Assembly: GCA_048886185.1 (NCBI GenBank)
Contig: JBHLKY010000004.1
Span: 30,001-62,000 of the forward strand
Reading direction: 5' to 3'
Source of the DNA: Candidatus Hermodarchaeota archaeon
Lineage (GTDB): Archaea > Asgardarchaeota > Heimdallarchaeia > Hodarchaeales > Hodarchaeaceae
DNA: 32,000 bases
Below, piece by piece: positions 12,986-18,853 of the stretch (its first letter is position 1; each line of letters starts with the position of its first letter). A program made the translations under genes and the position numbers. A model generated the notes under the pieces. It was not told the origin of the DNA and made no database searches. It worked only from the letters and a program-made list of their open reading frames with translations.

Positions 12986-13873
12986 TTAACCATCGAATAC
13001 TTGTTGGTTTGATAAAGGATGGCCTAAGTCATATGATTTTCTAAGATGTTCTAAAGAGACGTGAGTGTAAAGCTGGGTTGTTGAAAGAGAAGCATGCCCT
13101 AAAAGTTCTTGAATGATACGAATATCAACAGCATTTGATAATAAATGAGTTGCAAATGCATGACGGAGTGTATGAGGTGTTACATCTCTTTCCAGTAAAT
13201 CTGCAGCTTCTTTATACTTCTTAACAATTCGCTGCACTGATCTTGGGGTTAATCGGTTACCTGAACGATTCAAGATTAATGCAGGGTCTTGTGTGTTTTC
13301 CCGGGTCGTTATATAATCTTCTAAAATCTTAATTATTCCATTAGGGAGCGGAATTATCCTATCTTTCCCTCCTTTTCCACCTACTATGTGAATTATTTTT
13401 TCTTTCAGATCTATTTGTTCAATGTTGAGATTTGTTAATTCTGATACTCGCATACCTGTACCATATAATAAATAGAGAATAGCTTTGTCCCTTGGATTGT
13501 CCGGAGTACCTAATAGCTGCATTGTTTCTTCAATAGTAATTGTTTTAGGTAAAGATTTCGGAATCTTCGGAGATTCGATATTTTCAGTCGGATTCGTTGT
13601 AATAACTCCTTCCTTTTTTAGGAATTTAAAAAAAGATTTTAATGCACATATTTTTCGATGTAAACTTCTTGCTGCATACTCTTTATCTCGTTTAAGATGC
13701 AGAAAAAACCGTCGTAAATCCATTGTTGTTATTTCTTCAAACGATTTACCATTATTAAACCGTTCAAACATTTTTAAATCATAAGAATATTCACGAATGG
13801 TTTTTGGGGAGTACCCTTTTTCAATCTCCAATGTAACCAGAAAGTCGTCAATTAACATTTGAATATCGTCCAC
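12986..13873 (-). CDS. xerA: XerA/XerC/D-family tyrosine recombinase
   Basis: N-terminal SAM-like core-binding domain (EKGYSPKTIREY). Catalytic residues TGMRVSEL, GKGGKDR, HTLRHAF, LLGHASLSTTQLYTH (R-K-H-R-H-Y). Confidence 0.93.
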   Translation of the reverse strand: MDDIQMLIDDFLVTLEIEKGYSPKTIREYSYDLKMFERFNNGKSFEEITTMDLRRFFLHLKRDKEYAARSLHRKICALKSFFKFLKKEGVITTNPTENIESPKIPKSLPKTITIEETMQLLGTPDNPRDKAILYLLYGTGMRVSELTNLNIEQIDLKEKIIHIVGGKGGKDRIIPLPNGIIKILEDYITTRENTQDPALILNRSGNRLTPRSVQRIVKKYKEAADLLERDVTPHTLRHAFATHLLSNAVDIRIIQELLGHASLSTTQLYTHVSLEHLRKSYDLGHPLSNQQVFDG

Positions 13874-14000: not shown

Positions 14001-14513
14001 TCAGTATATTCTGTTCACTAGGGAAGCTTTCGCTAATTCTTCATTATAATTGATTAATTCTGCTCTATTTAACTCATGTAAAGAATGAAGAACGATAGCA
14101 GGAGAAAAACCTGTTGCTTTGGTTAATTCCTGACGAGTCATTTCAGATTTATCTCCATGTAAGAGGTATAAAATCTTCGCATGGGGCTTACCCTCGAATA
14201 CTTTCTCGAGTAAAGCAATGTAGATACTAAGAAGTTGTTTCACATCAAGCGAAGCTTCCTCTTTTTCTGAAATTTCAGAAAATAGTTCAGAAACTTTCTT
14301 GAATTCGGTCTCAAGACTTGCATATTTGAGTTCCAGTTGTTGTTGCTGAATTTGGGCTTCGTTCAATCTTGCTTCTCGTTCAACTAAGAGTTTTTCTTTG
14401 TCAGCTACTTCCTGTTGCTTCTTTTCTAACTCATTTTCCATTGTAACAATAGTATTTTTAACCTTCTCAATTATGGGTATAATTTCTTCAATTTTAAAGG
14501 TTTCTTCACTCAT
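14001..14513 (-). CDS. Coiled-coil plus C-terminal winged-helix protein of unknown function
   Basis: Heptad-rich E/K/Q segment at about aa 10-90, then PHAKILYLLHG-KSEMTRQELTKATGFSPAIVLHSLHELNRAELINYN, a wHTH pattern. RBS GGGTGG lies 7 nt before the ATG. Confidence 0.75.
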   Translation of the reverse strand: MSEETFKIEEIIPIIEKVKNTIVTMENELEKKQQEVADKEKLLVEREARLNEAQIQQQQLELKYASLETEFKKVSELFSEISEKEEASLDVKQLLSIYIALLEKVFEGKPHAKILYLLHGDKSEMTRQELTKATGFSPAIVLHSLHELNRAELINYNEELAKASLVNRIY

Positions 14514-14674: not shown

Positions 14675-15610
14675 TCAGGGAATTTTTCTGGGTTTACTTT
14701 CTTTATTAAATAATGCTATGTAACCTCGAGCATCAAATAAATCCTTTAAGTTCTCCATTGGCTCCTGTTCCCAAACCCTCCGTTTTTCATTATTAATCAA
14801 TAATGCTTCTGAGAATCCCCATTGGTGACAAATTTCCTCTATTTGCTGTCTTATTGAGGTCGTAGAAACACTAAAAAATTTCGAGAGTTTATATAAAGAA
14901 ACTAGTATTATGGGTATATTGAAAGTATAAATGATTCCTTTTATTCCTTCTAACAAAAATTGTTTTCGTCTTGTTTTTATTTCATCTCTTGAATCAGACA
15001 CTTTTGAGACACGTTGATTATATTCAATAAAGTCTCCCAAATTAATTCTCATTATGTCGAAACTAACAGGAAAAAAATCATTTATGTGTCGAACGGAGCC
15101 TATTGCTATAGTATTTTGTGTAAGTGTGATTGGTTGTGTAAAAAGTGTAAATGAAGGGGGAAGTGTTATTGCATTGCTCTCTAGACCACTTTCATGGAGC
15201 GGAGCGTGAAAGTGGACTTCACTACTAACAATTGTGAGTGGCTCATACTTTTGAAAAGTCATCCCCTCTGTTGGAGTGTATCTTAGTTTAGGTAGTTCAA
15301 AGATATCTAGATTTGTTCCAACAATAGATAAATTAAGCTGTTTGGCCAGTGGGAAATAGAAAGGAGCATTTGTTAAGGCTGTTGAGCCGTCAACGATGTA
15401 AAGGGTTTCAAGAGTACAGGCACCTTTATCATATGATCCATTAAGTTGATCAGTAACCTTTCGTGTTATAATGGAGTAACGAGGAAATCCTTTAAATTCG
15501 CGATAAAGTCGATGGGCGTGTGTTCGGAAAAATAAGTAGTCAGGGACGCATAGAAGACGGAATCGTTTAGATCCTATTATTCCTTGGTCAAGAAGAATTG
15601 AATCAAGCAA
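14675..15610 (-). CDS. Hypothetical protein; C-terminal third possibly RNase H/YqgF-like fold
   Basis: 311-aa open frame with a TTG start. Fold suggestion rests only on the pattern IMRINLGD...IKGIIYTFNIPIILVS...IRQQIEEICHQWG...LINNE...DLFDARGYIAL. Confidence 0.6.
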   Translation of the reverse strand: MLDSILLDQGIIGSKRFRLLCVPDYLFFRTHAHRLYREFKGFPRYSIITRKVTDQLNGSYDKGACTLETLYIVDGSTALTNAPFYFPLAKQLNLSIVGTNLDIFELPKLRYTPTEGMTFQKYEPLTIVSSEVHFHAPLHESGLESNAITLPPSFTLFTQPITLTQNTIAIGSVRHINDFFPVSFDIMRINLGDFIEYNQRVSKVSDSRDEIKTRRKQFLLEGIKGIIYTFNIPIILVSLYKLSKFFSVSTTSIRQQIEEICHQWGFSEALLINNEKRRVWEQEPMENLKDLFDARGYIALFNKESKPRKIP

Positions 15611-16847: not shown

Positions 16848-17834
16848 TTGGTTTGTTTAGCAAAAGGTGTAGCTCTATTGAATAAAAATGACCAAAAAAA
16901 TATTTTATTCGACAAGCTAGCTAATGAAAACCAGCCTCTTGTTGGTCAATCCTCCATAAAAGGGAGTAATCTTCTGGTCATTCTCGCTGATGAGGGGGGC
17001 CTTCCAGTTTACACAAGATCAATTCGTATAAATCAGTCAGGAGAAATCATTAAACGTCAAAGTCCAGAAATCAGTCCAAAAAACGAAAAAATTCTCTTGA
17101 TGTCTGGATTCTTAGAAGCCATTATACAACTGAAAGACATTATTCGACCTACTTTGCTAGATTTAACTGTAGAACAAAACAAACCACTTTATGTTGAGTA
17201 TGCTAAGGCTCCAAATGGTATTTCATTAGTGTCTTTAGCTACTTCCCCTGAATTTCAACAATTACCAATGAATTTGCTTAGTCATTATGCTCCGTTACAA
17301 ACAAATTTAGATAATCCTGAATATGCTGGATTAGATGAAAATTTCGAAAAAGCAATAGAAGGGCCATTAGGAGAAGATGCAGCCATATATTGGAAAGTCT
17401 TAAGTAGAATTAAATCCGATTTGGCTGAGTTTGTCTCTTTCATTCTAGTTTACGATGAAGATGGTAATTATTTGTTTTCAACAGCAAGAAGTCATCATCA
17501 AAGTGATATCACCGATCCTTTATTGGATTCTATTTCCAAATATATTAGACAAGAATATTTACTGCAAAAATACCAAGATAATCTGTCATTAATAGGAGCC
17601 AAAAGGCTAGAGAATTCAGTTATTTGGCATTTTAAATGCTTTGATAAAATATTTGTTTTCTTCACTTACATTATCCCAGAAATATATGGAAAATTCGATA
17701 TATTGAAAGAAGAAATGATTACTTTTATAGCAAACAATCTAGAGAAGTTTATTATCGCCTCAAAAAAGCACTCTGAGTCCTTATACAAAACAAGTGAAGA
17801 TATTAAAAGCACTAGATTTATCTTTCTCTCGTAA
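16848..17834 (+). CDS. Longin/roadblock-like domain protein, possibly two tandem domains
   Basis: LLVILADEGGLPVYTR...LLMSGFLEAIIQL resembles the Asgard longin pattern. A second unit reads FILVYDEDGNYLFS...DPLLDSISKYI. The TTG of LNKND after AAGGTG may be the true start. Confidence 0.6.
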   Translation: MVCLAKGVALLNKNDQKNILFDKLANENQPLVGQSSIKGSNLLVILADEGGLPVYTRSIRINQSGEIIKRQSPEISPKNEKILLMSGFLEAIIQLKDIIRPTLLDLTVEQNKPLYVEYAKAPNGISLVSLATSPEFQQLPMNLLSHYAPLQTNLDNPEYAGLDENFEKAIEGPLGEDAAIYWKVLSRIKSDLAEFVSFILVYDEDGNYLFSTARSHHQSDITDPLLDSISKYIRQEYLLQKYQDNLSLIGAKRLENSVIWHFKCFDKIFVFFTYIIPEIYGKFDILKEEMITFIANNLEKFIIASKKHSESLYKTSEDIKSTRFIFLS

Positions 17835-17939
17835 AGCTTAGTACTTCTTTAAATCTTGAATCGAAGATTAAGTAATCATTAAAGGTTATATTAGGAGTAT
17901 TTTTATTTTTATCAATTGTTTTCTTTGTAAGTGAGTTAG

Positions 17940-18731
17940 ATGTCTAAAAAAAAAGTTGAGAAGCTTATAATTGAACATGCGAAGAGTGGGAGGGCATCCT
18001 GTAGGACATGTCGAAAACGATTAGAGAAAGATGAGGTTAGAGTCGGTATACCATTTACTTTTACCAGACCTAATGGGGAGGAAATTTCTTCTTTTCGCTA
18101 CTATCATGTGATTTGTGTTCCTTATGATCGAATAAAGTCAGTATTAGAAGTTTTTCCATCTTTATCTATTATAGATAAAGAAAAAAAGGAGAAATTATTT
18201 GAATCTCTGAAAAAAAGAGAAAAGGACGAAATGGGGAAACTACAAGAAAAGAAATCTGAATTGAAGAAACCTTTTCTTGAACCTTCAAAAAGCTCTAGAG
18301 GATCTTGTCGAATTTGTGAAAAAAAGATAGAAAAGGGAATTCTTAGGGTAGCTGAACCCTCACAAATTGAATTAGATGATGGAAGAAAGTTTTTCTCGCA
18401 TAAATATTTTCATATGACATGTTATATTGAATCATCTAGAGATAGACCACTTTTGTTAAAAGACTTAATCGAAACTTCCCTTGCGCAAGGGAGTATTTCT
18501 CAAGAAGAAGCAGAGAAATTGGACAAAGACCTTCAAGCAGATTCTGAAGCTGATGAGAAAGCTGCTTCAGTATTAGCAGTTATTTCTGATGAACCGATCG
18601 ATATTATGACTCTTGAAAAGCTTGCAAAAGAGAAAGGGGTCCCTTTCAATCACGTAAAAAAGGCTCTTGAAAAGGGATTATTACAGGGAGTCTTCTTTGA
18701 ATCTTCCCCAGGAATGATTCAGAAGTTATAA
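17940..18731 (+). CDS. Tandem PARP-type zinc-finger protein with C-terminal winged-helix-like domain
   Basis: Finger 1: EHAKSGRASC21RTC24...RYYH56VIC59. Finger 2: EPSKSSRGSC123RIC126EKKIEKG..R...KYFH158MTC161. Tail VLAVIS...LEKLAKEKGVPFNHVKKALEKGLLQGVFFESSPG. Confidence 0.9.
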   Translation: MSKKKVEKLIIEHAKSGRASCRTCRKRLEKDEVRVGIPFTFTRPNGEEISSFRYYHVICVPYDRIKSVLEVFPSLSIIDKEKKEKLFESLKKREKDEMGKLQEKKSELKKPFLEPSKSSRGSCRICEKKIEKGILRVAEPSQIELDDGRKFFSHKYFHMTCYIESSRDRPLLLKDLIETSLAQGSISQEEAEKLDKDLQADSEADEKAASVLAVISDEPIDIMTLEKLAKEKGVPFNHVKKALEKGLLQGVFFESSPGMIQKL

Positions 18732-18853
18732 TCACCTTTTTTATCTAGGATTACTTTTTTAGGAATGGTATTCTTGTATTGTGAAATTCTGATTACTATT
18801 CAATTGTCTATGACAATAGTTGAAAGGAAATCTTCTATCTAATGACAATATTG

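What the first reader, a model, noticed from the sequence alone, without database searches (positions are those of the whole stretch)
17940..18731. Stand-alone archaeal protein with PARP1-like Zn1-Zn2 tandem fingers and a winged helix, without a catalytic domain
Seen: two complete CX2C-X31-HX2C fingers (C21/C24/H56/C59 and C123/C126/H158/C161). Known: human PARP1 Zn1 uses C21/C24/H53/C56 and Zn2 uses C125/C128/H159/C162. The segment EHAKSGRASCRTC..L.KD..R matches PARP1 EYAKSGRASCKKC..I.KD..R, including the backbone-gripping R18 and R34. Finger 2 carries KIEKG..R like PARP1 Zn2, and the spacing between fingers is almost the same as in PARP1. The C-terminus has a wHTH pattern reminiscent of RPA32-C or MCM-C protein-docking domains instead of an ADP-ribosyltransferase. 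Inference: a DNA strand-break sensor/adaptor that recruits repair factors through its wHTH, and a possible archaeal source of the eukaryotic PARP1/LIG3 nick-sensing module.
Basis: partly seen in the sequence, partly recalled or inferred. Interest (0 to 1): 0.9.

Follow-up and report, generated by a model that had tools for sequence, protein, structure and literature searches.

The report
Archaeal PARP-type fingers with MCM tail
A Hodarchaeales (Asgard) archaeon encodes a small enzyme-free protein that joins two genuine PARP1-type DNA-break-sensing zinc fingers to a copy of the winged-helix tail of its own replicative helicase MCM, so it probably links nicks or breaks to the replication-loading machinery; the fingers' presence in these archaea is already published, the architecture is not.

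Summary
No PARP catalytic, WGR, PADR1 or PARG domain was found in the 96%-complete genome.

- **Winged helix:** it is a sequence homologue of the genome's own MCM C-terminal tail (hhalign 95.5%, E 1.4e-8).
- **Prior art:** Eme et al. 2023 (Supplementary 4.1.3) already report zf-PARP in Heimdall- and Thorarchaeia. This scan met the same family twice before on other DNA (e1-5416257, e1-5444095).
- **Bacteria:** Myxococcota, Planctomycetota and Melainabacteria carry stand-alone two-finger relatives.
- **Link to PARP1:** in my finger tree all eukaryotic fingers form one clade beside single-finger Thor/Heimdallarchaeaceae proteins, not beside this family. The AU tests did not reject the alternatives, so descent of PARP1's F1-F2 from this tandem is unresolved and disfavoured.

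Best reading: a break- or nick-binding adaptor whose MCM-type winged helix docks on an MCM-tail partner, most plausibly Orc1/Cdc6, with only weak in-silico support. It is a new arrangement of known domains, of moderate interest.

The parts
17940..18731 (+). Coding sequence of the 263-aa protein: two zf-PARP fingers, an acidic helical spacer and a C-terminal winged helix
   Evidence: ORF and translation. 34 homologues of about 260 aa. It is the only PF00645 locus in the genome.
17973..18227 (+). Finger 1 (aa 12-96), with ligands C21, C24, H56 and C59 and backbone-grip R18 and R34
   Evidence: Genome hit C4:47973-48227, 47.8 bits. Pfam best stretch 12-95. R34, H56 and C59 are invariant in 29 homologues. 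It aligns to PARP1 Zn1.
18165..18269 (+). Basic Lys/Glu-rich helical linker between the fingers (aa 76-110). This is the place where an Ssb-like OB fold is inserted in the orthologue of genome G015 (P0023).
   Evidence: Model helix 80-108. pI 9.5. OB insert PF21473, 50.7 bits, in P0023, at the same locus.
18279..18437 (+). Finger 2 (aa 114-166), with ligands C123, C126, H158 and C161 and R120 and R136
   Evidence: Genome hit C4:48279-48437, 36.3 bits. R120, C123, C126, R136, H158 and C161 are invariant. It aligns to PARP1 Zn2.
18435..18575 (+). Acidic two-helix spacer (aa 166-212)
   Evidence: Helices 169-183 and 188-212 in both models. pI 4.3.
18552..18728 (+). C-terminal winged helix (aa 205-263), homologous to the C-terminal winged helix of MCM
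   Evidence: Model pLDDT 88.8. Fold hits are Rpa2-WH, RPA32C and archaeal MCM-WH, Z 7.5-8.3. The best non-self hit in the own genome is the MCM tail. hhalign 95.5%, E 1.4e-8, 47 gap-free columns in register with both C-termini. The WH profile hits MCM tails in other Heimdallarchaeia.
17900..17911 (+). A/T box TTTTTATTTTTA, 29-40 nt upstream of the ATG: a possible archaeal TATA-like promoter element (inference only)
   Evidence: Read from the sequence. Not tested.
18737..18760 (+). Two T6 runs just after the stop codon: a possible archaeal oligo-T terminator (inference only)
   Evidence: Read from the sequence. Not tested.

Best explanation
The gene encodes a non-enzymatic adaptor found in one genus-level clade of Hodarchaeales.

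Shown: it has two real zf-PARP fingers that keep the zinc ligands and the phosphate-backbone-grip arginines. An acidic helical spacer follows. The protein ends in a winged helix that is a paralogous copy of the C-terminal winged helix of the replicative helicase MCM.

Inferred, step 1: the two basic fingers bind DNA discontinuities (nicks, gaps, ends) without sequence specificity, as PARP1 F1F2 and the LIG3 finger do.

Inferred, step 2: the charge-neutral MCM-type winged helix is a protein-docking handle. It would engage whatever binds MCM's own tail, and in Sulfolobus that partner is ATP-Orc1-1. The protein would then either bring Orc1/Cdc6, and thereby MCM loading, to broken DNA, or compete with MCM for Orc1/Cdc6 when DNA is damaged.

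No ADP-ribosylation is involved.
For: Domain identity:
- Pfam, PDB and fold matches.
- R34, R120, R136 and seven of the eight Zn ligands are invariant in 29 homologues (C24 varies in one); R18 is kept in every full-length sequence.
- R18/R122 are PARP1's backbone grip (PMC8150716).
- The fingers have pI 8.7-9.3 and the WH has net charge 0.

An orthologue at the same locus carries an Ssb-like ssDNA-binding OB fold between the fingers. That fits recognition of gaps or junctions.

Winged helix is an MCM tail:
- It is the only significant non-self hit in the genome, E 1.6e-3.
- hhalign 95.5%, E 1.4e-8. BLASTP 33% identity, E 3e-8.
- The WH-only profile finds the end of an open frame of MCM size (690-1756 aa) as second hit in 18 of the 19 g1 genomes that hold the finger-linked WH, at E 4e-10 to 6e-7. 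It also finds such frames at E 8e-8 to 5e-3 in families that lack this protein.
- PF00493 confirmed MCM in the five relatives' genomes checked, as one search did for the own genome.

Known partner: the MCM C-terminal wH interacts with ORB-bound Orc1-1 (PMC12141716, citing Samson 2016).

Complex prediction, WH against the genome's best Orc1/Cdc6:
- Verdict: weak support. Score 0.58 (runs 0.57-0.59); best of 3 controls 0.00.
- The runs agree in 100% of contacts and the partner's pLDDT is at least 87.
- The mark was reached by 58 of 80 solved complexes and 2 of 110 mismatched pairs.
- At 0.60 or under it was reached by only 7 of those 80 and by both mismatches that passed.
- My own alignment was used, so these counts hold only roughly.

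Conservation: the tandem fingers are in 19 of 21 sister genomes, always between orf328 and the GDSL gene.

No PARP catalytic domain was found in the genome or, over cut-off, in 400 Asgard genomes.
Against: - No experiment and no expression data exist.
- The aromatic base-stacking residue of PARP1 Zn1 (F44) aligns with Pro44 here, so the mode of break recognition may differ.
- The complex score is in the band that is more often wrong than right without a good prior. Solved ORC-Cdc6-MCM structures could let the model score from likeness.
- Winged helices are promiscuous. Rpa2-WH, RPA32C and DprA score as high by fold, so other partners (primase, PolD, MCM itself) are not excluded.
- Gene order is collinear across the whole genus, so it gives no functional linkage.
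- The protein evolves faster (31-58% identity) than its neighbours.
Confidence: 0.5

Rival explanations
1. Direct ancestor of the PARP1 DNA-binding domain. On this view the tandem F1-F2 of this protein is orthologous to PARP1 F1-F2, and eukaryotes inherited it from a Hodarchaeales-like ancestor and later fused it to WGR and the catalytic domain.
For: - The alignment with 2n8a is colinear over both fingers, E 1.6e-11, with nearly equal spacing.
- The only longer relatives found are eukaryotic PARP1s, matched over both fingers.
- HMM cross-scores show a slight reciprocal F2-F2 affinity: the EukF2 model scores Hod F2 at 49 and Hod F1 at 39, and the Hod F2 model scores EukF2 at 43 and EukF1 at 37.
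- The AU test does not reject Hod/Heimdall F2 plus PARP1 F2 as one clade (dlnL 1.9, p 0.45).
- Hodarchaeales are proposed as the sister group of eukaryotes (PMC10307638).
Against: - In the ML tree, all eukaryotic fingers including F1 and F2 form one clade (100/95). That clade groups with single-finger Thor/Heimdallarchaeaceae proteins (99/99).
- Forcing Euk together with this family's F1 costs 30.8 lnL units (p 0.12).
- The Hod F2 model scores highest on Hod F1 (52 bits), which suggests a duplication within the lineage.
- The WH-bearing architecture was found only in one genus-level clade among the 61 class genomes sampled.
- Bacteria also have two-finger proteins.
Confidence: 0.15
2. A DNA-damage-responsive transcription factor. 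The winged helix would bind a specific operator and the fingers would sense damaged DNA, or act as a second DNA-binding module.
For: - Winged helices are the commonest archaeal transcription-factor fold, and many fold hits are MarR, Fur, PadR or IclR regulators.
- The protein stands alone and probably has its own promoter.
Against: - The WH is specifically similar in sequence to the MCM tail, not to regulator families. Pfam finds no HTH family.
- Its net charge is about 0, with a family median of +0.5.
- Regulator hits rank below the protein-docking WHs of Rpa2, RPA32C and MCM.
Confidence: 0.1
3. Recent horizontal acquisition from bacteria of a generic two-finger DNA-binding protein, with no special relation to eukaryotes or to replication.
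For: - Two-finger proteins of about 180 aa are widespread in Myxococcota, Planctomycetota and Obscuribacterales, with 111 relatives.
- The quick tree joined bacterial F2 with Hod/Heimdall F2 (SH-aLRT 95).
Against: - The gene is in 19 of 21 genomes of the genus at a syntenic locus.
- Other Heimdallarchaeia families and Thorarchaeota carry their own zf-PARP architectures: 101 of 400 Asgard genomes.
- In the careful tree the bacterial F1 clade (100/99) sits beside the F1s of another Heimdallarchaeia family and apart from this family's fingers. The bacterial F2 clade no longer joins Hod F2.
- Hod F2 scores no better on bacterial F2 than on bacterial F1: 34-37 bits.
- The WH is derived from the host's own MCM.
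Confidence: 0.07

Closest known systems
Human PARP1 N-terminal zinc fingers F1-F2 (Zn1-Zn2; PDB 2n8a, 4av1, 3od8, 3odc, 9mi8)
   Same: - Same Pfam family.
- Same CCHC ligands and the same fold.
- Backbone-grip arginines conserved.
- Two fingers in tandem with nearly the same spacing.
   Different: - There is no Zn3/PADR1, BRCT, WGR or catalytic domain.
- Pro stands at the position of base-stacking F44.
- Both fingers have a 31-residue loop, against 28 and 30 in PARP1.
- The ML tree does not pair its F1 and F2 with PARP1's.
- It carries an MCM-type winged helix instead.
Asgard 'zf-PARP' eukaryotic signature protein noted by Eme et al. 2023 (Nature 618:992, Supplementary Information 4.1.3)
   Same: This is one of those homologues. 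My distribution (Heimdallarchaeia families plus Thorarchaeota, next to none elsewhere in 400 Asgard genomes) matches their statement.
   Different: That text gives one paragraph on the presence of the domain only. It says nothing of the tandem arrangement, the winged helix, the OB-insert variants, the single-finger architecture or the bacterial relatives.
C-terminal winged-helix domain of archaeal MCM (PDB 2m45, 2ma3), the handle bound by Orc1-1 in Sulfolobus
   Same: Sequence homology to the genome's own MCM tail (hhalign 95.5%, E 1.4e-8), the same fold, and the same position at the extreme C-terminus.
   Different: It is detached from the helicase and fused to DNA-break fingers. It is only 33% identical to the MCM tail. 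Its partner is untested.
Bacterial stand-alone two-finger zf-PARP proteins (about 175-190 aa; for example in Labilithrix luteola DSM 27648, Polyangiaceae, Planctomycetota, Obscuribacterales)
   Same: Enzyme-free, with two zf-PARP fingers in tandem.
   Different: - They have no winged helix, a shorter linker and high-GC hosts.
- Orthology of the tandem is unresolved.
- They are likewise uncharacterised, and no recurrent neighbour was seen within 3 kb.
RPA32 C-terminal / archaeal Rpa2 winged helix (PDB 4mqv, 1dpu, 9f27, 9f2a)
   Same: Top fold matches: Z 8.3 and 8.0, and Foldseek TM 0.80 to 9f2a. These are protein-docking WHs of replication and repair.
   Different: The likeness is at fold level only, with 14-20% identity. 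Z near 8 is common for this fold. The own-genome sequence search finds the MCM tail, not an RPA.

Membership tests
zf-PARP (Pfam PF00645) | Profile score above the curated gathering cut-off | tested here: met
   80.1 bits against 39.3, in two stretches. Finger 1 alone scores 47.8 bits and finger 2 alone 36.3 bits.
zf-PARP (Pfam PF00645) | C-x2-C-x(28-31)-H-x2-C zinc ligands | tested here: met
   C21/C24/H56/C59 and C123/C126/H158/C161. They are conserved in 29 homologues.
zf-PARP (Pfam PF00645) | Fold of the solved PARP1 and LIG3 fingers | tested here: met
   Foldseek probability 1.00 to 2n8a, 3od8, 3odc and 1uw0. TM by target is 0.53-0.58 for single fingers.
zf-PARP (Pfam PF00645) | Phosphate-backbone-grip arginines (PARP1 R18/R34 and R122/R138) | tested here: met
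   R18, R34, R120 and R136 align with them. R34, R120 and R136 are invariant. Roles as described in PMC8150716.
zf-PARP (Pfam PF00645) | Hydrophobic base-stacking loop residue (PARP1 F44) | tested here: not met
   Pro44 aligns with F44. The neighbouring D45/G46 pair is kept as N45/G46 here and as D/G in the family. A nearby aromatic residue (F41/Y) could substitute, but this was not tested.
zf-PARP (Pfam PF00645) | Preferential binding to DNA strand breaks | not testable with these tools
   Needs EMSA or anisotropy on nicked, gapped and blunt DNA.
PARP1-type poly(ADP-ribose) polymerase | ADP-ribosyltransferase catalytic domain (PF00644) | tested here: not met
   It is absent from the protein. 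No hit in the genome and none over cut-off in 400 Asgard genomes. The control genomes also lack it, so sensitivity was not shown.
PARP1-type poly(ADP-ribose) polymerase | WGR, Zn3/PADR1 and BRCT accessory domains | tested here: not met
   They are not in the protein. There are no WGR or PADR1 hits in the genome.
PARP1-type poly(ADP-ribose) polymerase | F1 and F2 orthologous to PARP1 F1 and F2 | tested here: inconclusive
   The ML tree puts all eukaryotic fingers in one clade, 100/95. The AU test does not reject F2-F2 grouping, p 0.45. The alignment has 83 columns only.
MCM C-terminal winged-helix domain | Sequence homology to MCM tails | tested here: met
   hhalign 95.5%, E 1.4e-8. BLASTP E 3e-8. 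The profile hits the ends of MCM-sized open frames across Heimdallarchaeia; those checked with PF00493 are MCM.
MCM C-terminal winged-helix domain | Winged-helix fold at the extreme C-terminus | tested here: met
   Model pLDDT 88.8. Z 7.8 and 7.5 to 2ma3 and 2m45. The alignment ends one residue from both C-termini.
MCM C-terminal winged-helix domain | Attached to an MCM AAA+ helicase core | tested here: not met
   The protein has no MCM domain. It is a detached paralogous copy, not an MCM.
MCM C-terminal winged-helix domain | Binds Orc1/Cdc6 | tested here: inconclusive
   Complex prediction gave weak support. The score was 0.58 and the best of 3 controls 0.00. The mark was reached by 58 of 80 solved complexes and 2 of 110 mismatched pairs. 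At 0.60 or under it was reached by only 7 of those 80 and by both mismatches that passed. Biochemistry is needed.
RPA32C / Rpa2 winged helix | Homology beyond the shared fold | tested here: inconclusive
   It gives the best fold Z, 8.3 and 8.0, but does not stand clear of other WHs. No RPA-like sequence hit turned up in the own genome with the WH as query.

The most novel reading that the evidence does not exclude
The protein is a damage-to-replication coupler that works by molecular mimicry. Its fingers park on nicks or broken forks, and its MCM-tail copy captures ATP-Orc1/Cdc6. This would either license origin-independent MCM reloading at the break or withhold the loader from origins while DNA is damaged. 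That would be a minimal, ADP-ribose-free checkpoint or restart device in the archaeal lineage closest to eukaryotes, using the same sensor module that eukaryotes later wired to PARP and ligase III.
Probability: 0.2. Interest if true: 0.8.

Novelty: new variant of a known kind. Interest (0 to 1): 0.55.

Why it matters
PARP-type fingers are the first responders to DNA breaks in eukaryotes, and their origin is unknown.

This work shows that Asgard archaea carry the sensor in several enzyme-free architectures. No PARP catalytic domain was found over cut-off in 400 genomes. Sensor and enzyme were therefore most likely joined later.

The Hodarchaeales version couples the sensor to a copy of the MCM tail. 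[quoted passage not shown]

It also tempers a tempting story. This tandem protein is not clearly the ancestor of PARP1's F1-F2. The single-finger Thor/Heimdallarchaeaceae proteins look closer to the eukaryotic fingers, and bacteria hold many two-finger relatives.

Tried and rejected
- **RNA evidence.** The look-up of sequencing runs listed four sediment-metagenome DNA runs of one study, the likely source of this DNA, and no RNA holder. This says nothing about expression.
- **Ku/LigD neighbourhood of bacterial two-finger genes (lead from e1-2283066).** In 80 bacterial loci with 3-kb flanks, no neighbour family recurred in more than 6 loci. The recurrent ones were kinase, GNAT, ECF sigma, isocitrate dehydrogenase, M28 peptidase and ABC-F, not Ku or LigD. 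The lead was not reproduced in this mostly myxobacterial sample, and the flanks were short.
- **First alignment for the genome scan.** I repeated it with 7 sequences.
- **Insert between the fingers in the second Heimdallarchaeia family (316-aa type).** Pfam finds no OB fold. BLASTP against the OB of P0023 gives E 0.31. Its fold is left open. The 197-aa one-finger type has only a sub-threshold HROB OB hint, E 0.0046.
- **Third own-genome hit of the WH (C54, E 0.15).** It lies in a metallo-beta-lactamase-like membrane protein and is chance.
- **Gene neighbourhood as a functional clue.** The whole 15-kb region is collinear across the genus, so it is uninformative.
- **Names for most metagenomic hits.** These could not be obtained.
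- **Literature.** Searches for zf-PARP or PARP together with Asgard, Heimdallarchaeota or Hodarchaeales in main texts found nothing relevant. The prior report sits in a supplement.
Full report
**1. The observation**

Window 17940-18731 (+) is an intact 263-aa ORF.

- Pfam assigns zf-PARP (PF00645) at 80.1 bits, E 2.1e-22, against a cut-off of 39.3, in two stretches.
- phmmer against PDB sequences puts human PARP1 F1F2 (2n8a) first at E 1.6e-11. The ligase III finger (1uw0) follows at E 1e-3.
- An AlphaFold model built on 29 homologues has mean pLDDT 85.7. Foldseek returns PARP1 F1F2, the single Zn1 and Zn2 fingers and the LIG3 finger as its top 27 hits.

**2. Organism and context**

- The window is contig 4, 30001-62000, of a 4.84-Mb genome that is 96% complete.
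- Homologues of 42-59% identity are labelled Hodarchaeales, Hodarchaeota, Heimdallarchaeota or Promethearchaeota.
- The gene lies two genes downstream of dph2. Eme et al. describe the dph genes as retained only by Hodarchaeales among Heimdallarchaeia.
- The order int-arsR-orf311-dph2-orf328-zfPARP-GDSL-hydA-hydB-MOFRL-KaiC is collinear in eight sister genomes. This shows orthology but gives no functional linkage.
- The finger protein diverges faster (31-58% identity) than its neighbours.
- An A/T box 29-40 nt upstream of the ATG and T-runs after the stop codon suggest a transcription unit of its own (inference).

**3. No enzyme partner**

- The genome has only this one PF00645 locus.
- It has no hit to the PARP catalytic domain, WGR, PADR1 or PARG, and one ordinary macrodomain.
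- No PARP catalytic hit over cut-off was found in 400 Asgard genomes.
- The control genomes lack these families too, so the sensitivity of these negative searches was not demonstrated.

**4. The C-terminal domain**

- A separate model of residues 164-263 (pLDDT 88.8) shows two helices followed by a strand-helix-helix-strand-strand winged helix.
- By fold the best matches are protein-docking winged helices of replication and repair:

| Match | Score |
|---|---|
| P. abyssi Rpa2-WH | Z 8.3; Foldseek TM 0.80 to 9f2a |
| DprA C-terminus | Z 8.1 |
| Human RPA32C | Z 8.0 |
| Archaeal MCM-WH | Z 7.8 and 7.5 |

- Such Z values are common for this fold, so fold alone does not decide between them.
- Earlier notes of this scan on the same family in other genomes (e1-5416257, e1-5444095) called the domain a copy of the MCM tail. 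I tested that claim.
  - Searching the own genome with residues 205-263 gives, after the gene itself, one hit at E 1.6e-3.
  - That hit is the extreme C-terminus of the intein-bearing MCM open frame.
  - hhalign of the family's C-terminal profile against the last 100 residues of that MCM gives 95.5% probability, E 1.4e-8. It covers 47 gap-free columns in the same register to both C-termini. BLASTP gives 33% identity, E 3e-8.
  - A 59-column WH-only profile finds the finger-linked WH in 19 of 22 genomes of the genus, counting the window's own. In 18 of those 19 the second hit (E 4e-10 to 6e-7) is the end of an open frame of MCM size, 690-1756 aa.
  - In families that lack this protein the profile still finds such frames, at E 8e-8 to 5e-3.
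  - PF00493 confirmed that these frames are MCM in the five relatives' genomes I checked, as one search did for the own genome.
- The winged helix is thus an MCM-tail paralogue. The WH-bearing architecture was found only in this genus-level clade among the 61 class genomes sampled.
- The WH is charge-neutral, the fingers are basic (pI about 9) and the spacer is acidic (pI 4.3). This fits a docking role rather than a DNA-binding role (inference).

**5. Other architectures and distribution**

PF00645 occurs in 101 of 400 Asgard genomes.

| Group | Genomes with a hit | Architecture |
|---|---|---|
| This genus (Hodarchaeales) | 19 of 21 | Tandem fingers plus WH |
| A second Heimdallarchaeia family | 10 of 12 | F1, an insert of about 130 aa, F2, helical tail; about 316 aa |
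| A third Heimdallarchaeia family | 3 of 3 | One finger plus a possible OB fold; about 200 aa |
| Heimdallarchaeaceae | 23 of 31 | Unknown N-domain of about 150 aa plus one C-terminal finger |
| Thorarchaeota | 43 of the 89 genomes in the tally's last three families | Same single-finger type as Heimdallarchaeaceae |

- Other families of the phylum have next to none. The largest family scored 1 of 135, and that hit was weak.
- The single fingers give the highest Pfam scores, 60-67 bits over the full model.
- One orthologue at the same locus (genome G015, P0023) has an Ssb-like OB fold (PF21473, 50.7 bits) inserted between the fingers.

**6. Prior art**

- Perina et al. 2014 found no PARP in archaea.
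- Eme et al. [quoted passage not shown] The domain's presence is therefore published, and my distribution agrees with it.
- That text does not describe the tandem-plus-winged-helix architecture, the MCM relationship, the OB variants or the bacterial relatives. I found no main-text paper that does.
- NCBI already names some members "PARP-type zinc finger-containing protein".

**7. Relatives outside archaea**

- A profile search of 1.84 billion representatives gives 862 hits at E up to 1e-3, of which 14 are at E up to 1e-30; 13 of these are family members or fragments of them and one is a plant protein with 11 fingers.
- The only longer relatives found by word search are eukaryotic PARP1s.
- Many hits are two-finger proteins of 175-210 aa. 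A scan of species genomes names 111 relatives, mostly Myxococcota. They include cultured Labilithrix luteola, Polyangiaceae, Kofleriaceae, Haliangium and Archangium. Planctomycetota, Obscuribacterales and a few Cyanobacteria also appear.
- Enzyme-free tandem zf-PARP proteins are therefore not an archaeal peculiarity.

**8. Finger phylogeny (90 fingers, 83 columns)**

- The careful ML tree gives the following:
  - all eukaryotic fingers (PARP1 F1 and F2 of animals and a plant, and plant ZDP) in one clade, 100/95;
  - that clade joined to the single-finger Thor/Heimdallarchaeaceae proteins, 99/99;
  - bacterial F1 as one clade, 100/99, and bacterial F2 as one long-branched clade, 99/100;
  - this family's F2 together with the second Heimdallarchaeia family's F2 (68/99), weakly nested among this family's F1s.
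- The quick tree had joined prokaryotic F2s instead.
- HMM cross-scores agree that Hod F2 is closest to Hod F1 (52 bits). They also show a slight reciprocal affinity to PARP1 F2 (43 and 49 bits, against 37 and 34 for PARP1 F1).
- AU tests lack power. Hod/Heimdall F2 plus PARP1 F2 as one clade costs only 1.9 lnL units (p 0.45). Eukaryotes plus this family's F1 costs 30.8 units (p 0.12).
- My reading: the data favour a eukaryote-internal F1/F2 duplication and a nearer kinship of the eukaryotic fingers to the single-finger Asgard type. Neither point is settled, and the direction of any transfer between archaea and bacteria cannot be told without a root.

**9. Mechanism**

- Shown: the domain identities and the conserved ligands and grip arginines. 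R34, R120 and R136 are invariant, and R18 is kept in all full-length members. Their roles in PARP1 are described in PMC8150716.
- Not conserved: the base-stacking F44, which aligns with Pro44.
- Inferred: the fingers bind nicks, gaps or ends. The OB-insert orthologue points to gapped or junction DNA.
- In Sulfolobus the MCM C-terminal wH is the handle by which ORB-bound, ATP-form Orc1-1 recruits the helicase (PMC12141716, citing Samson et al. 2016).
- The genome has four Orc1/Cdc6 paralogues. The best one lies next to a gene that looks like the PolD small subunit. Another lies just upstream of MCM.
- One complex prediction, WH against the best Orc1/Cdc6, returned "weak support".
  - The score was 0.58 (runs 0.57-0.59) and the best of three controls was 0.00.
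  - The runs agree in 100% of contacts and the partner's pLDDT is at least 87.
  - The mark was reached by 58 of 80 solved complexes and 2 of 110 mismatched pairs.
  - At 0.60 or under it was reached by only 7 of those 80 and by both passing mismatches.
  - My own alignment was used, and solved ORC-Cdc6-MCM complexes may lend a memory effect.
- I therefore propose a break-bound adaptor that presents an MCM-tail mimic to Orc1/Cdc6, either recruiting or sequestering it. My confidence is about 0.75 for break binding and about 0.3 for the Orc1/Cdc6 partner.

**10. Verdict**

- The feature is real and well conserved. It is a new arrangement of known domains.
- Its evolutionary claim is weakened, and its novelty claim is reduced by a published note and by two earlier reports of this scan.
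- Interest is moderate at 0.55. A testable link between DNA-break sensing and helicase loading in Hodarchaeales would be notable if it were confirmed.

Noticed in passing
G000 contig 36, 15343-18537 (loci L114, L115, L118): The genome's MCM is a 1340-aa open frame whose ATPase domain is split by about 1.9 kb, which points to one or more inteins. An Orc1/Cdc6 paralogue (C36:12393-13451) lies directly upstream.
   Followed up: partly
G000 contig 3 (locus L120, 1414-2661 + and 2690-4081 -): The best-scoring Orc1/Cdc6 (438.8 bits) is followed, 28 nt downstream and on the opposite strand (convergent), by a 463-aa metallophosphatase-type gene that looks like the PolD small subunit. This is probably a replication-origin region.
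   Followed up: no
window 16848-17834 (+) and 14675-15610 (-): Two conserved ORFs of 328 and 311 aa have no Pfam hit. They are syntenic in most of the sister genomes sampled (six or seven of eight), at 41-80% identity. The first is the gene just upstream of the finger protein; another first-reader note (e1-5454600) calls it a tandem longin.
   Followed up: partly
loci L092-L097, L102, L103 (Thorarchaeota) and L003-L005, L010 (Heimdallarchaeaceae): A family of about 230 aa has an undescribed N-terminal domain of about 150 aa and a single, very eukaryote-like C-terminal zf-PARP finger. Two paralogues lie about 1 kb apart in a complete Thorarchaeota genome (G319 C1:1667741 and 1669017). In my tree these fingers are the nearest prokaryotic relatives of the eukaryotic ones.
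   Followed up: partly
loci L012-L091: A widespread bacterial family of two-finger zf-PARP proteins of about 180 aa with no other domain. It occurs in Myxococcota, Planctomycetota, Obscuribacterales and some Cyanobacteria. No recurrent gene neighbour was seen within 3 kb.
   Followed up: partly
locus L100 (G015 C1:650575-651714), protein P0023: The orthologue of the window's gene carries an Ssb-like OB fold (PF21473) inserted in the linker between the two fingers.
   Followed up: partly
locus L099 (G038 C1, 613-aa ORF); proteins P0129, P0082, P0093: Further uncharacterised architectures exist. One is a 613-aa Heimdallarchaeia protein with one N-terminal finger. Others are bacterial proteins of 930-1330 aa (Anaerolineae, Deltaproteobacteria) with tandem fingers at one end, some annotated as ankyrin-repeat proteins.
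   Followed up: no
window 12986-13873 (-) and 14001-14513 (-): A XerC/D-type tyrosine recombinase and an ArsR-type HTH protein lie upstream. They are conserved in place across the genus, so this is not a mobile-element boundary.
   Followed up: partly
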